Shown: piece after piece, positions 99-48,272 of the stretch
How positions within the stretch are numbered: position 1 is the first letter of the stretch
Layout of the letters: each line of letters starts with the position of its first letter
From: Promethearchaeati archaeon
GTDB lineage: Archaea > Asgardarchaeota > Heimdallarchaeia > Heimdallarchaeales > Heimdallarchaeaceae
Reading direction: 5' to 3'
Assembly: GCA_013166775.1 (NCBI GenBank)
Contig: JABLTJ010000021.1
Location: 1 to 58,267, forward strand
Length of the DNA stretch: 58,267 bases
Program-made: the position numbers and the translations under genes
The notes under the pieces: generated by a model
Told to the model about the DNA's origin: nothing
The model's input: only the letters and a program-made list of their open reading frames with translations
Databases searched by the model: none

Positions 99-1611
<1,513 letters not shown>

Positions 1612-45446: not shown

Positions 45447-46556
45447 TTAATCTAGAACCGATAAATCAATTTCGTGATCAAAGTATTTTTCTAGATTCTT
45501 AATAACTTTTTTCTTTCTGATATTATGTTGTTCTTGGTGGTTTAATATCATTTCTATTAGTCTTGGTTTACAATCTAAACCACATATCAACTCACCATCT
45601 TTGCAACCTTTACGTACTTCACTCAATTCCTTATCATCTCTCACGAAATACTTCTCAAACCAATCATAAATGGTGCAAATATCAGGATCTGCACCTAAAT
45701 TTCGTTGTTCTTTTATTGTGGTTCTGCCACCAGTAAGAGCATCCATAATTTTCCTCTTAATCGTTTTTGCATCATCATTTAAGAAAACACAACTTTCAGG
45801 AGCAGAAGAAGACATTGGTTTTCCTGTTAATCCTTTTAAGAATCTAATATATAGTGATGCAGGAGAATAGATTTTTCTTTTTCTAGCAATATCTCTTGTT
45901 AACCTGATAAACACATCTTGATCAAGTCCAACAGGAACTACAACTGGTAGACTATAATCTGTTGTGGGATGAAGAATATGTGCCGCCTGAATGCAAGAAT
46001 AAAAAACAGTGCCTGCATTTTCTTCTCCGGTTAATCCAAGAGCGGATTTTATTGTGTTATACGTTTGATTTACTGAAAAACTTAAAGCTAAATACTGAAT
46101 TCGAGGTGTTATACTCGATATGTATGCATGAACCTTATTTGGTTTGAATCCAAGTGCAAAAATATCTACCGCGTTTTCTAATGATAATTTATATGTTTCA
46201 TTTAAACTATCAACTTTCCGAAAAACATATTTTTCATCATCCGAAAGCGGAAGAAAAAAGTCACAATCGTACTTTTCTTGAATGAAGCGGATTAGCTCAA
46301 ACAGAATAAAATGACCATAGTGCAAATCACTCGATGGACCACGACCACTGATAATTGCAAAATTCTTATTTTGTTCTGTTCTATCAAGTATTTTGTTAAA
46401 ATCTCTATGAGCAAAAACCACATTTCTTCGAAAAAATAAGTGCTCTTTTCCTATTCTAGGTAATACTTTATCGATCTTGGAAATCCCAAACTCCTCAAGA
46501 ATTCTATCATAATCTGTTTTTTTCTCAATATCTTGGATTTCATTTTCTGTATTCAT
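45447..46556 (-). CDS. trpS: Tryptophanyl-tRNA synthetase (ATG after SD GGTGA)
   Basis: FAHRDF, SGRGPSS.LHYGH (HIGH), GLDQD, MSSS (KMSKS), LTGGR. Confidence 0.95.
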   Translation of the reverse strand: MNTENEIQDIEKKTDYDRILEEFGISKIDKVLPRIGKEHLFFRRNVVFAHRDFNKILDRTEQNKNFAIISGRGPSSDLHYGHFILFELIRFIQEKYDCDFFLPLSDDEKYVFRKVDSLNETYKLSLENAVDIFALGFKPNKVHAYISSITPRIQYLALSFSVNQTYNTIKSALGLTGEENAGTVFYSCIQAAHILHPTTDYSLPVVVPVGLDQDVFIRLTRDIARKRKIYSPASLYIRFLKGLTGKPMSSSAPESCVFLNDDAKTIKRKIMDALTGGRTTIKEQRNLGADPDICTIYDWFEKYFVRDDKELSEVRKGCKDGELICGLDCKPRLIEMILNHQEQHNIRKKKVIKNLEKYFDHEIDLSVLD

Positions 46557-46575
46557 GTAAATCACCTTTTCCAAT

Positions 46576-46684
46576 TGAAAAATAAAGAAACCTCAGAGTA
46601 TTTTGATCTGGACTGCACCCTACCTTATTGTTATTAGGGTAAAAATCATAGCTGGTTAATTCCAGTCCAATTAATCACTCTCAT
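46576..46684 (-). promoter_or_regulatory. Structured trpS leader with a 12-aa Trp-containing uORF (46646..46684, MRVINWTGINQL) and a U-rich tract
   Basis: UGGACUG/CAGUCCA stem overlapping the Trp codon, UACCCUA/UAGGGUG hairpin, competing CUGG/CCAG hairpin, UUUCUUUAUUUUUC tract. Confidence 0.55.
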
Positions 46685-46871
46685 TGTTTTTTTGGAAAAA
46701 ATAATTTATAAGAATATCGTCTAATAACTTACGATTTTCAGAATACACAGAATTAAACAAAAACCATTCTAGACTATCGTATTTTAGATTTCTCTGTGTT
46801 TAAATATTCTACTATAATTAAAATCAATGAGATTAAAGAATTACAAAGTAAAAAAAAGTTGAAGGATTTTA

Positions 46872-48272
46872 ATGGCAGTAAAAAATACTAAGAAGTTTGT
46901 TATCCCTTTAGAATGGAAGCAACAAGATAGTAAAATAAGTATAAATGTACTGGAAATCAAATACAGTGATAGTATAGGAGTATCTAGCTTACTAAATGAA
47001 TTATGTTCAAAAAATGTTGCTTTTTCCCTTAAATTTGATACAAAGAAACAGTATCTTATACTCTACAACTTTTTTATTAAGGAAGCTGATATAGAGAGAA
47101 GAAAAGATTTAATCAAGCATTTGAAAAAAACATACACCCTTCAGGATTTAACAAATGCAACTTCAATATTTATCCCTGAAATTAAAAAGATAGATCAAGA
47201 AGATTCGGTTTTAAAATTAAAGCTAACAAATAACAACAATCAATTCTCTTTTGCTTGTATACTCTCCTCTATTAATTCAGGATCCCATAATTTAAAGAAG
47301 AAGATAACACATTTTATTACTGATTTACTACAAGCAGAAATCTTCTCCATCGTTCTTTCACACATTCCTTCATACCGTAAAGGTGGTCAAATATTGCCAA
47401 AATGGGGAATGTTGTTAATATCCAAATCCTCTAACTTTGATGAAGTTTCGAAGAAAAGAGAACAATTTCTCCGTTATCTCAAAACTAGTTCAACAAAACT
47501 AAATTGTAAGCTTACATTAATTTCAAAGAAAGCAATTGCTAAACACGAGGTTAATTTCCGTTTTTATGTTCCTTGGATAAAACATGAAGGCTTATTTCTA
47601 GATTTAATTAATATTGACCAGCTATTAAGAGCAAGAAAAACAAAAATAGCGGAAAGCATAGAAAGAAAATCGAGTGGTATATCACTAAAAATCCCTCAAC
47701 AAAAAACACAAAAGAAACCTAGCTTAAAGAGCATTTCTTTGTTTAAACCCTTTCCATCAGCAAAAGAGCTAAGTGCTACAGTTGAGATCTCAGATAATAA
47801 TATGCTTGCAGAATCCCCTTCTACCAATTTGATGAATAATAAGAAAATAGAAGAAATTCCAGCACCTAGTAATTTGGATGATCTTACTATTCCGTTACCA
47901 AGAACAGTTAATACGACCTTCGATGCAGAATATCTTAAGGTACGAATAAATAAAGTCTTCAAAGAATTTGATTTTAAGGAAACAGTAATTTTCGAAGATT
48001 CATTTGATTTAGTGCTTCGAAAGGAATCATTCTATATTTTTGTTAAATTCTACCAAGACATACTAAATCAAACCCATGCTTATGAAATAGTTGATATTCT
48101 CAGTTCTATAGCAGGTTTAAGGAATGATTTTTTGTGTGTTGTAGTTGCTGATGTTGTAGAAGAAGGATCGAAAAATGTGTTGCATGAATTCAATATTCTC
48201 CATCTAACACTAAATGATGTTCTTTTGAATGACGCCTTAAAAACTAAAATATACAACACAATTCTTGCTTAA
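46872..48272 (+). CDS. Hypothetical protein with a possible degenerate PD-(D/E)xK/Mrr-like C-terminal domain
   Basis: FDLVLRK..YIFVK pattern after a Pro/Ser/Lys-rich linker. Confidence 0.5.
   Translation: MAVKNTKKFVIPLEWKQQDSKISINVLEIKYSDSIGVSSLLNELCSKNVAFSLKFDTKKQYLILYNFFIKEADIERRKDLIKHLKKTYTLQDLTNATSIFIPEIKKIDQEDSVLKLKLTNNNNQFSFACILSSINSGSHNLKKKITHFITDLLQAEIFSIVLSHIPSYRKGGQILPKWGMLLISKSSNFDEVSKKREQFLRYLKTSSTKLNCKLTLISKKAIAKHEVNFRFYVPWIKHEGLFLDLINIDQLLRARKTKIAESIERKSSGISLKIPQQKTQKKPSLKSISLFKPFPSAKELSATVEISDNNMLAESPSTNLMNNKKIEEIPAPSNLDDLTIPLPRTVNTTFDAEYLKVRINKVFKEFDFKETVIFEDSFDLVLRKESFYIFVKFYQDILNQTHAYEIVDILSSIAGLRNDFLCVVVADVVEEGSKNVLHEFNILHLTLNDVLLNDALKTKIYNTILA

What the first reader, a model, noticed from the sequence alone, without database searches (positions are those of the whole stretch)
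46556..46715. Trp-codon leader peptide in switchable RNA structure upstream of trpS: candidate archaeal attenuator
Seen (minus strand): TATA-like CTTATAAA at 46712-46705, then ~20 nt later an apparently leaderless uORF 46684-46646, MRVINWTGINQL. Its Trp codon is the start of UGGACUG, which pairs with CAGUCCA (46615-46609). That stem encloses a 7-bp hairpin (UACCCUA/UAGGGUG) and is extended by AGAGU/ACUCU. A mutually exclusive CUGG-AAUUAA-CCAG hairpin overlaps it. A U-rich tract (46590-46577) precedes the trpS SD and ATG. Known: ribosome stalling at Trp codons controls bacterial trp genes, and archaea terminate at U-tracts with coupled translation. Inference: Trp-tRNA-sensing attenuation of TrpRS. 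Caveats: there is only one Trp codon, and the TATA element could instead serve the divergent gene.
Basis: partly seen in the sequence, partly recalled or inferred. Interest (0 to 1): 0.75.

Follow-up and report, generated by a model that had tools for sequence, protein, structure and literature searches.

The report
Tryptophan-sensing frameshift leader before trpS

Summary
In sister-family leaders that frame is closed by a stop or lacks a start codon. The conserved parts are these. A Shine-Dalgarno-like GAGnGUGRU lies at the transcript start. Three bases later comes a 4-codon mini-ORF, UUG GAC UGG nnn stop (46670-46656). A "connector" frame, -1 to the mini-ORF, is open from the Trp codon to just past the trpS AUG (46668-40).

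Over 23 genus leaders the variable part holds 82, 1 and 82 stops in the three frames. In 10 of 27 family leaders the connector has no AUG, GUG or UUG at all. A second, unrelated TrpRS type in sister families carries the same "..L-D/E-W-stop" mini-ORF, AUG-started, with a -1 connector. thrS and proS of this genome have sister leaders with Thr and Pro codons.

My best reading is a hungry-codon frameshift sensor coupled to trpS translation, with prfB-like logic, and not the proposed hairpin attenuator. The frameshift itself is inferred, not shown. This scan noted the same kind of leader before on other DNA, including leuS/thrS of this genome. I found no publication describing it.

The parts
46704..46721 (-). 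Promoter: BRE-like GACGATATT plus TATA box CTTATAAAT. The transcription start is inferred about 23-27 nt downstream, near 46684-46681.
   Evidence: CGAyAnTCTTATAAAG is nearly invariant in 23 genus loci and in genus g10. The spacing to the conserved block is constant.
46674..46682 (-). Shine-Dalgarno-like GAGAGUGAU (consensus GAG-n-GUGRU) at the 5' end of the leader.
   Evidence: Invariant except the bulged n. The duplex with the genome's own 16S 3' end GAUCACCUCCU is -8.5 to -12 kcal/mol. The true SDs of trpS, thrS and proS give -9.8 to -11.1. Only 2% of random 14-mers of the window reach -8.
46656..46670 (-). Sensor mini-ORF UUG GAC UGG AAU UAA (M-D-W-N-stop). The sensor Trp codon is at 46664-46662.
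   Evidence: UUG lies 3 nt after the SD-like block. The stop falls at the same position in 24 of 27 family leaders but is TAA (6), TGA (6) or TAG (12). Sister families have AUG-started versions: MPLEWK, MQLEWQ, MRLEW, MSDTLDW, MKLILLDW.
46540..46668 (-). Connector reading frame (-1 to the mini-ORF): 42 sense codons from GGA 46668 across the whole leader, the trpS SD and the AUG, ending at TGA 46542-46540, 14 nt into trpS.
   Evidence: Stops in the variable part of 23 leaders: 82, 1 and 82 in the three frames. The frame is open for 33-53 codons and ends between -20 and +47 of the main start in all 27 family leaders. There is no AUG, GUG or UUG in this frame in 10 of 27, including the window. 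The last upstream stop lies 10-13 nt before the Trp codon in 25 of 27.
46646..46684 (-). Probably not the functional frame.
   Evidence: The ATG is not conserved. The position of its stop varies from 12 to 38 codons. The same frame is closed by UGA or lacks a start in sister-family leaders L028 and L122, and in L105 and L020.
46661..46683 (-). 5' strand of the long-range helix. It covers the SD-like block, the UUG start and both UGG triplets.
   Evidence: Single-sequence folds of all clades pair this block with a downstream partner. The duplex is stronger than with a shuffled partner in 27 of 27 (mean z -2.2).
46593..46617 (-). 3' strand of the long-range helix (..GCAGUCCAG..ACUCU..). CCA 46611-46609 is invariant.
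   Evidence: The partner sequence differs by clade: CAGUCCAA, CAG-A-CCAA, UUCCAGUACCA, UCCACUUCCA, and GAUCCA in g13. Pairing is kept throughout.
46616..46641 (-). Inner hairpin (ACCCUA loop UAGGGU) inside the connector frame.
   Evidence: 63% of cells are paired, with two pairs changed on both sides. A hairpin is present at a similar place in every clade. Sister-family leaders have a G+C-rich hairpin 4-5 nt after the mini-ORF.
46562..46567 (-). Shine-Dalgarno GGUGAU of trpS.
   Evidence: AGGUG lies 4-7 nt before the ATG and is conserved in the genus. The predicted probability of being unpaired ranges from 0.01 to 0.72 among relatives.
45447..46556 (-). trpS (tryptophan--tRNA ligase, 369 aa).
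   Evidence: Pfam PF00579. NCBIfam trpS TIGR00233, 210 bits against a cut-off of 177.

Best explanation
The trpS messenger starts about 130 nt upstream of the gene with a translated sensor. A Shine-Dalgarno-like sequence at the 5' end loads a ribosome on a four-codon mini-ORF, UUG GAC UGG AAU UAA. If charged tRNA-Trp is plentiful, UGG is read and the ribosome terminates one codon later, about 100 nt before trpS. If it is scarce, the ribosome waits with UGG in its A site and slips one base back (G GAC to GGA C) into a start-less connector frame. It then translates the whole leader, opening the long-range helix and any pairing of the trpS ribosome-binding site. It terminates 14 nt past the trpS AUG, so that trpS is translated by coupling or reinitiation. 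More TrpRS is therefore made when its product, Trp-tRNA-Trp, is short. The logic is that of bacterial RF2 (prfB), but placed in an upstream ORF. Shown by comparison: the mini-ORF, its SD, the invariant UGG, the selectively open start-less connector ending at the main start, and the long-range pairing. Inferred: that the shift occurs, that it is -1 at this UGG, that it responds to charging, and that the coupling is positive.
For: (1) Frame openness. In the variable part of 23 genus leaders there are 82, 1 and 82 stop codons in the three frames. Per sequence, the chance of zero stops under dinucleotide shuffles is 0.03-0.14, across about six to eight diverged clades. The open frame ends at -20 to +47 of the main start in 27 of 27 family leaders, with AUGA overlaps in one clade.

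(2) No ordinary entry. In 10 of 27 leaders, including the window, the connector has no AUG, GUG or UUG. It is closed 10-13 nt upstream of the UGG in 25 of 27.

(3) The mini-ORF. The SD-like block pairs with the 16S 3' end as strongly as real SDs. UUG follows 3 nt later. The stop position is conserved by all three stop codons in 24 of 27.

(4) Independent lineages. A different TrpRS type (33-40% identity) in families f2 and f3 is preceded by AUG- or UUG-started mini-ORFs ending in ..L-D/E-W-(0-10 aa)-stop. Each has a -1 connector of 26-70 codons ending at the main start, with UAAUG or UAA|UUG junctions.

(5) Sister leaders in this genome. thrS has M-L-G-E-x-E-T, with ACA invariant in 18 of 18 plus four more genera. 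proS has M-I/K-G-E-F-V-P, with CCG invariant in 6 of 6. Each has a shifted frame open to the main start. thrS leader lengths of 99, 102, 105 and 108 nt show only multiple-of-three indels. 12 of 15 aaRS genes have such a long alternative frame, against 18% of 492 control genes.

(6) Between genera g1 and g13 the two changes next to the UGG (GGA CUG to GGG UUG) are both synonymous in the connector frame.

(7) The block is single-copy and found only before trpS.
Against: The P-site re-pairing for a -1 slip is imperfect: GAC to GGA leaves a G.A clash at the wobble position, and GGU to GGG in g13 likewise. There is no classical X XXY YYZ heptamer. A UUG start and a 4-codon ORF are unusual. The trpS SD is only weakly and variably sequestered, so the need for coupling is not evident. 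One leader (L015) has a stop in the connector 13 nt before the AUG. Related sequences are not independent, so the stop counts overstate significance.
Confidence: 0.45

Rival explanations
1. +1 frameshift at the other UGG. The ribosome starts in the first reader's frame, at the 5'-terminal NUG or the invariant GUG 46678-46676. It stalls at UGG 46669-46667 and slips +1 (A[A/C]U U to [A/C]UU) into the same connector frame.
For: The connector is +1 to this frame, the geometry seen at thrS and proS. GUG is invariant in 27 of 27. ACU-U and AAU-U keep the wobble base after a +1 slip. Codon 13 of this frame is TGG, TGA or TAG in 15 of 23.
Against: The first codon is ATG, TTG, CTG or AAG. The frame's stop lies anywhere from 12 to 38 codons. 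In sister-family leaders with the same UUGGAnUGG motif this frame is closed by UGA just upstream (L028, L122) or has no start, while the mini-ORF frame has AUG plus SD. The GUG is explained as part of the SD-like block.
Confidence: 0.13
2. Occlusion or negative uORF. The connector is translated from a non-canonical start (CUG 46665-46663, overlapping the UGG) or by reinitiation after the mini-ORF. It represses trpS by running over its start site. A ribosome stalled at UGG blocks entry into the connector and so relieves the repression.
For: NUG overlaps the UGG in every leader: AUG in f3, CUG in g1 and g10, UUG in g13. The connector crosses the trpS SD and AUG in another frame. The trpS SD is often unpaired, so it may not need help.
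Against: NUG before G is automatic wherever UGG stands, so it is not independent evidence. In f3 that AUG lies 17 nt or more from the SD. The stop of the connector sits at or next to the main start (AUGA, UAAUG, UAA|UUG), which is the usual layout of positive coupling.
Confidence: 0.12
3. One reading: a leaderless Trp leader peptide governs a choice between two hairpins, and so premature transcription termination at the U tract.
For: A long helix is followed by U-rich sequence in all clades. Archaeal RNA polymerase terminates at oligo-U (established knowledge). A Trp codon lies in the 5' strand of the helix.
Against: The ATG is not conserved, and the alternative hairpin is found only in L001 and L002. 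There is no consensus terminator or antiterminator. The MFE z-score is -1.2. The model does not explain why one frame is kept free of stops through the U tract, the SD and the AUG.
Confidence: 0.07
4. A structured RNA that binds tRNA-Trp (T-box-like, with UGG-A as specifier) or TrpRS itself (ThrRS-operator-like tRNA mimic), with no role for translation of the leader.
For: The invariant UGGA is paired with an invariant CCA. All three cognate codons seen here are followed by A in G000.
Against: There is no T-box or other Rfam match. The leader is about 130 nt long and has no conserved loops. Hairpin loops vary freely. This model cannot explain the stop-free frame, the multiple-of-three indels or the conserved stop of the mini-ORF.
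Confidence: 0.04

Closest known systems
Bacterial prfB (release factor 2) autoregulatory +1 frameshift, and eukaryotic antizyme (PMC5009743, read)
   Same: A short zero-frame ORF ends right after a codon whose decoding speed reports the activity of the gene's own product. Slow decoding makes the P-site tRNA slip, and the ribosome continues in a frame that has no start of its own. A Shine-Dalgarno-like sequence just upstream is conserved.
   Different: Here the slow codon is a sense codon (UGG) read by the product of the enzyme, not a stop read by the protein itself. The shift is probably -1, not +1. The shifted frame does not encode the enzyme but is a connector that ends at the start codon of a separate gene. 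The host is an archaeon. Nothing is shown experimentally.
Bacterial leader-peptide attenuators of synthetase genes: pheM-pheST of E. coli, and the predicted trpS and leuS attenuators of Streptomyces (PMC1262725, read)
   Same: A tiny ORF with the cognate codon lies in the leader of the matching aminoacyl-tRNA synthetase gene. The ribosome acts as the sensor of charged tRNA.
   Different: Those have runs of cognate codons and a conserved terminator/antiterminator pair acting on transcription. Here there is one codon, no conserved alternative hairpins, and a stop-free connector frame that points to a translational output.
T-box riboswitches of Firmicutes and Actinobacteria
   Same: They control aaRS genes in response to tRNA charging, with a single specifier codon in the leader.
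   Different: T-boxes bind uncharged tRNA directly and need Stem I, a specifier loop and the T-box bulge. None is found here (no Rfam hit), and reading-frame constraints are present instead.
Hungry-codon ('leftward') frameshifting in starved E. coli (reviewed in PMC5009743, section on tRNA balance)
   Same: An empty A site at a codon whose charged tRNA is scarce lets the P-site tRNA slip by one base.
   Different: In E. coli it is regarded as an error or a by-product. Here it would be a selected, conserved regulatory device.

Membership tests
Classical leader-peptide transcription attenuator (trpL / pheM type) | Short translated leader ORF containing the regulatory (cognate) codon(s) | tested here: met
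   The mini-ORF UUG GAC UGG nnn stop, with SD, is conserved in 27 family leaders. AUG-started versions occur in sister families.
Classical leader-peptide transcription attenuator (trpL / pheM type) | Conserved mutually exclusive antiterminator and terminator hairpins, the terminator followed by a U run | tested here: not met
   RNAalifold consensus energy is -0.15 kcal/mol. The proposed alternative hairpin is present in 2 of 23. Only one long-range helix is conserved.
Classical leader-peptide transcription attenuator (trpL / pheM type) | Premature terminated transcript | not testable with these tools
Autoregulatory programmed frameshift (prfB / antizyme type) | Short zero-frame ORF that ends at or just after the slowly decoded codon | tested here: met
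   The stop lies one codon after UGG in 24 of 27, and 0-10 codons after it in sister families.
Autoregulatory programmed frameshift (prfB / antizyme type) | Long ORF in a shifted frame, selectively kept open and lacking its own start | tested here: met
   82, 1 and 82 stops in the three frames. No canonical start in 10 of 27. The frame is closed 10-13 nt upstream of the UGG.
Autoregulatory programmed frameshift (prfB / antizyme type) | Shine-Dalgarno-like stimulator 5' of the shift site | tested here: met
   GAG-n-GUGRU against the 16S 3' end gives -8.5 to -12 kcal/mol. It ends 6 nt before the P-site codon. Here it may simply be the SD of the mini-ORF.
Autoregulatory programmed frameshift (prfB / antizyme type) | P-site codon that can re-pair in the new frame | tested here: inconclusive
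   G GAA to GGA re-pairs well (f3). G GAC to GGA and G GGU to GGG leave a wobble-position clash (reasoning from anticodons).
Autoregulatory programmed frameshift (prfB / antizyme type) | The shifted frame encodes the regulated protein itself | tested here: not met
   The connector is out of frame with trpS and stops 14 nt into it. Its peptide is not conserved.
Autoregulatory programmed frameshift (prfB / antizyme type) | Frameshifting demonstrated and responsive to the sensed activity | not testable with these tools
   Needs reporters, ribosome profiling or mass spectrometry.
T-box riboswitch | Match to the T-box covariance model (Stem I, specifier loop, T-box bulge) | tested here: not met
   No T-box hit at E <= 10 in 46300-47000.
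Archaeal C/D-box sRNA | Conserved C (RUGAUGA) and D (CUGA) boxes with a terminal stem, about 50-70 nt long | tested here: not met
   No significant Rfam C/D match; the best was U54, 16 bits against a gathering score of 40, at a different place. CUGA is lost in L003, L005 and clades B-D.
Cognate-codon mini-ORF leaders of Asgard aaRS genes (known so far only from this scan's notes) | Mini-ORF with one codon for the enzyme's own amino acid, plus a shifted frame open to the main start, at several aaRS genes of the same genome | tested here: met
   trpS. thrS 18 of 18 and proS 6 of 6. ileS and leuS of G000, single-genome look only.

The most novel reading that the evidence does not exclude
Asgard archaea measure the charging of individual tRNAs with the ribosome itself. 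Each of several aminoacyl-tRNA synthetase messengers opens with a mini-ORF holding one cognate codon. A ribosome starved at that codon shifts frame (-1 at trpS, +1 at thrS and proS) into a start-less connector ORF that delivers it to the synthetase start codon. This would be the first tRNA-charging sensor described in archaea. It would also be the first case of programmed frameshifting in an upstream ORF used as a general amino-acid gauge.
Probability: 0.45. Interest if true: 0.9.

Novelty: new variant of a known kind. Interest (0 to 1): 0.8.

Why it matters
How archaea adjust synthetase levels to amino-acid supply is essentially unknown. T-boxes and leader-peptide attenuators are bacterial, and I found no archaeal example in five full-text searches. 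[quoted passage not shown] That combines the logic of prfB or antizyme with uORF control, which is the mode eukaryotes use for GCN4 and ATF4. The motif is short, sharply defined and repeated for several amino acids. It can therefore be tested directly with frame-specific reporters, and it could serve as a portable sensor of tRNA charging.

Tried and rejected
C/D-box sRNA and every other Rfam family: no hit, and the D box is not conserved.

A regulon motif shared with other Trp genes: the block does not recur in the genome beyond chance, 28 matches against 18 control matches at up to 3 mismatches.

A general initiator motif TGAG at +1: no positional enrichment after 9,501 TATA-like boxes.

An anticodon mimic in hairpin loops: the thrS loop UGUUAA looked like anticodon UGU, but it varies among relatives (AGAUAA, AUGAGA, UAUUAA). 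The trpS loops vary freely.

The second TrpRS paralogue of G000 (C105): it has no such leader.

Conserved consensus structure by RNAalifold on the fixed alignment: nothing found. The pairing partner shifts register between clades, so it was assessed by duplex energy instead.

tRNA-Trp gene: aragorn found 32 tRNAs but no tRNA-Trp in this 89%-complete assembly. Nothing is concluded from that.

Strong sequestration of the trpS SD as the reason for coupling: it holds only in some clades, with P(unpaired) from 0.01 to 0.72.
Full report
**The locus.** The window comes from a Heimdall-group Asgard archaeon. Close relatives of its TrpRS lie on contigs titled "Candidatus Heimdallarchaeota archaeon". 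On the minus strand, 46556-45447 encodes tryptophan--tRNA ligase (Pfam PF00579; NCBIfam trpS above cut-off). An AGGUGAU Shine-Dalgarno sequence precedes the AUG, and this SD is conserved in the genus. Taken alone the 145-nt leader does not fold better than shuffled sequence (z = -1.2). No Rfam family matches it, neither C/D box nor T-box.

**Conservation.** I collected trpS loci from 23 species of the genus, then from the other genera of the family and from sister families. In the genus the leader is 125-132 nt long, with no indel in its first 92 columns. The promoter (CGAyAnTCTTATAAAG) is nearly invariant, and so is a 22-nt block starting about 27 nt after the TATA box, TGAGnGTGRTnAnTTGGnnTGG. 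The block occurs once per genome, always before trpS. It is found in 22 of 24, 2 of 2 and 2 of 2 genomes of three genera, and in no other of 83 genomes of the class. Reversed-pattern controls gave almost nothing. The proposed alternative hairpin CUGG..CCAG exists only in L001 and L002. The AGAGU/ACUCU extension is paired in 61% of cells, and UGGACUG/CAGUCCA in 89% with G-U compensations. RNAalifold finds no fixed consensus. Every clade nevertheless pairs the invariant 5' block with a clade-specific partner 50-70 nt downstream. That duplex beats a shuffled partner in 27 of 27 leaders (mean z -2.2).

**Sister leaders.** While checking other synthetase genes of the genome I saw that thrS and proS have leaders of the same build. 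The thrS mini-ORF is AUG YUA GGU GAA UNN GAA ACA.. (M-L-G-E-x-E-T). Its Thr codon is invariant in 18 genus loci and in four more genera. Those genera also carry an in-frame 3-nt insertion, an E-to-D change and stops at codons 9-11. The proS mini-ORF is AUG AWA GGU GAA UUU GUU CCG (M-I/K-G-E-F-V-P), with the Pro codon invariant in 6 of 6. The shared motif ATG..AGGTGAAT occurs only at these two places in the genome.

**The earlier-note lead and the frame test.** A look-up of this scan's earlier notes then showed that other agents had seen cognate-codon mini-ORFs before synthetase genes of Asgard and DPANN archaea. One note concerns leuS/thrS of this very genome and proposes a prfB-like frameshift. 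I took that as a lead and tested it on trpS. From the UUGGACUGG motif onwards, one frame is open for 33-53 codons. It runs through the whole leader, the trpS SD and the AUG, and stops at +1 to +47 of the AUG in 22 of 23 genus leaders. The exception, L015, stops at -13. The other two frames close after 3 and 7-33 codons. Counting only the variable part (column 25 to the AUG), the three frames hold 82, 1 and 82 stops. For a single sequence the chance of zero stops is 0.03-0.14 under dinucleotide shuffling, and the clades are strongly diverged in this part. Genera g10 and g13 keep the same frame open. The frame is not the trpS frame, and its peptide is not conserved. In 10 of 27 leaders, the window's among them, it contains no AUG, GUG or UUG at all. 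In 25 of 27 it is closed by a stop 10-13 nt upstream of the motif. Ordinary initiation therefore cannot explain it. Entry must occur at the motif.

thrS (18 of 18) and proS (6 of 6) show the same property, in the +1 frame from their cognate codon. The thrS leader lengths of 99, 102, 105 and 108 nt mean that all indels are multiples of three. Across the genome, 12 of 15 aaRS genes have a long alternative frame ending at their start, against 18% of 492 control genes.

**Which Trp codon.** The motif holds two overlapping-frame UGGs. The second (46664-46662) lies in a mini-ORF, UUG GAC UGG nnn stop. Three observations favour the second.

1. The invariant GAG-n-GUGRU just upstream pairs with the genome's own 16S 3' end (GAUCACCUCCU). 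The duplex is -8.5 to -12 kcal/mol, with the one variable base bulged out. That is as strong as the true SDs of trpS, thrS and proS, and it is reached by only 2% of random 14-mers. UUG follows after 3 nt, the spacing used by real genes here.
2. The mini-ORF's stop sits at the same position in 24 of 27 leaders but is TAA, TGA or TAG.
3. Families f2 and f3 have a different TrpRS type (33-40% identity). Their trpS is preceded by the same UUG GA[A/C] UGG, there inside AUG-plus-SD mini-ORFs (MPLEWK, MQLEWQ, MRLEW, MSDTLDW, MKLILLDW) or UUG-started ones. A connector follows in the -1 frame, 26-70 codons long, ending at the main start with UAAUG, UAA|UUG or a stop at +5 to +8.

The f1 and f3 blocks align without a gap (GAGUGUGGUAACUUGGACUGG against GAGACGAUGCAAUUGGAAUGG). 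Between g1 and g13 the two changes next to the UGG (GGA CUG to GGG UUG) are both silent in the connector frame.

**Mechanism.** Shown by comparison: an SD-led mini-ORF with one invariant Trp codon and an early stop; a start-less frame kept open from that codon to the trpS start; and a long-range helix that covers the SD, the start and the Trp codon. Inferred: with UGG unread in the A site, peptidyl-tRNA on GAC slips back onto GGA, CUG is read, and the ribosome runs the connector to the trpS start, where trpS is translated by coupling or reinitiation. The logic matches RF2 and antizyme, where slow decoding of one codon both senses and corrects a shortage of the product (PMC5009743). SD-like stimulators are known for both +1 (prfB) and -1 (dnaX) shifts (same paper).

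Weak points are these. Re-pairing of GAC on GGA is imperfect. There is no heptameric slip site. The start is UUG and the ORF has four codons. The trpS SD is only variably sequestered. No expression data exist.

**Novelty.** Classical attenuators are predicted before trpS and leuS of Streptomyces (PMC1262725), and pheST of E. coli is a known case. T-boxes control aaRS genes in Firmicutes. Five full-text searches and the 2021 review of archaeal recoding (PMC8211752) gave no archaeal synthetase leader of either kind and no frameshift sensor of tRNA charging. Within this scan the same kind of element was noted before on other DNA. The present work adds three things: the Trp member of the Heimdall family, the stop-count test, and the finding that trpS uses -1 geometry shared by two unrelated TrpRS types.

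Noticed in passing
G000:C1:234425-234560 (locus L041/L055), outside the window: The thrS leader has a TATA box, then UUGAGGAC, then the mini-ORF MLGEYETIK with an invariant Thr codon ACA. It contains the internal SD-like AGGUGA, and its +1 frame is open to the thrS AUG. It is conserved in 18 genus loci and four more genera.
   Followed up: yes
G000:C1:267658-267800 (locus L042/L077), outside the window: The proS leader has the mini-ORF MIGEFVPK with an invariant Pro codon CCG, a rare codon in this A+T-rich genome. GAGGAC/GUCUUC pairing shows a compensatory GAGGAU/AUCUUC change in L082 and L083. Only 7 of 15 genus genomes with a hit have this ProRS type. The others carry a 39%-identical ProRS without the leader.
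   Followed up: partly
G000:C105:29134-30216 (locus L054): There is a second TrpRS paralogue, 38% identical to the window's. It is found only in G000 and G006 among the genus genomes searched. Its upstream region has no UUGGAnUGG motif.
   Followed up: partly
L006-L012 and L004/L005 upstream regions (relatives of window 46700-46760): In most relatives a divergent gene starts 20-30 nt on the other side of the same near-palindromic TATA box (CTTATAAG). One TATA element may therefore serve two divergent transcripts, the other one leaderless. In the window the divergent gene (46872-48272) lies 160 nt away.
   Followed up: no
window 46872-48272 (+): A 466-aa ORF divergent from trpS has no Pfam or NCBIfam match.
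   Followed up: no
G000:C1:55430-55500 (locus L047): The valS leader begins with the same UUGAGUGUG as trpS leaders of clade D. It forms a 5'-terminal hairpin UUGAGUG-UGUUAU-CACUCAA followed by U5. A 54-codon alternative frame ends 5 nt into valS.
   Followed up: no
G000:C1 ileS (L046) and leuS (L048) upstream: The ileS mini-ORF is MDREIRY (GAA AUU) and the leuS mini-ORF is MGYRVLLSR (GUU CUU CUU U). Each has a +1 frame open to the main start. The codon before the cognate codon recurs: GAA at thrS, ileS and f3 trpS; GUU at proS and leuS.
   Followed up: partly
L118, L121, L122 (family f3 trpS leaders): A G+C-rich hairpin (for example AGCCGCG-AAGGAGA-CGCGGCU) starts 4-5 nt after the Trp mini-ORF. 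That is the position of a classical -1 frameshift stimulator.
   Followed up: no
window about 100-115 (-): The 3' end of the 16S rRNA (..GGAUCACCUCCU) lies at the edge of the window. It was used to define the anti-Shine-Dalgarno sequence.
   Followed up: partly
G000 whole assembly: aragorn finds 32 tRNA genes but no tRNA-Trp. The gene may be intron-containing or unassembled, since the assembly is 89% complete.
   Followed up: no
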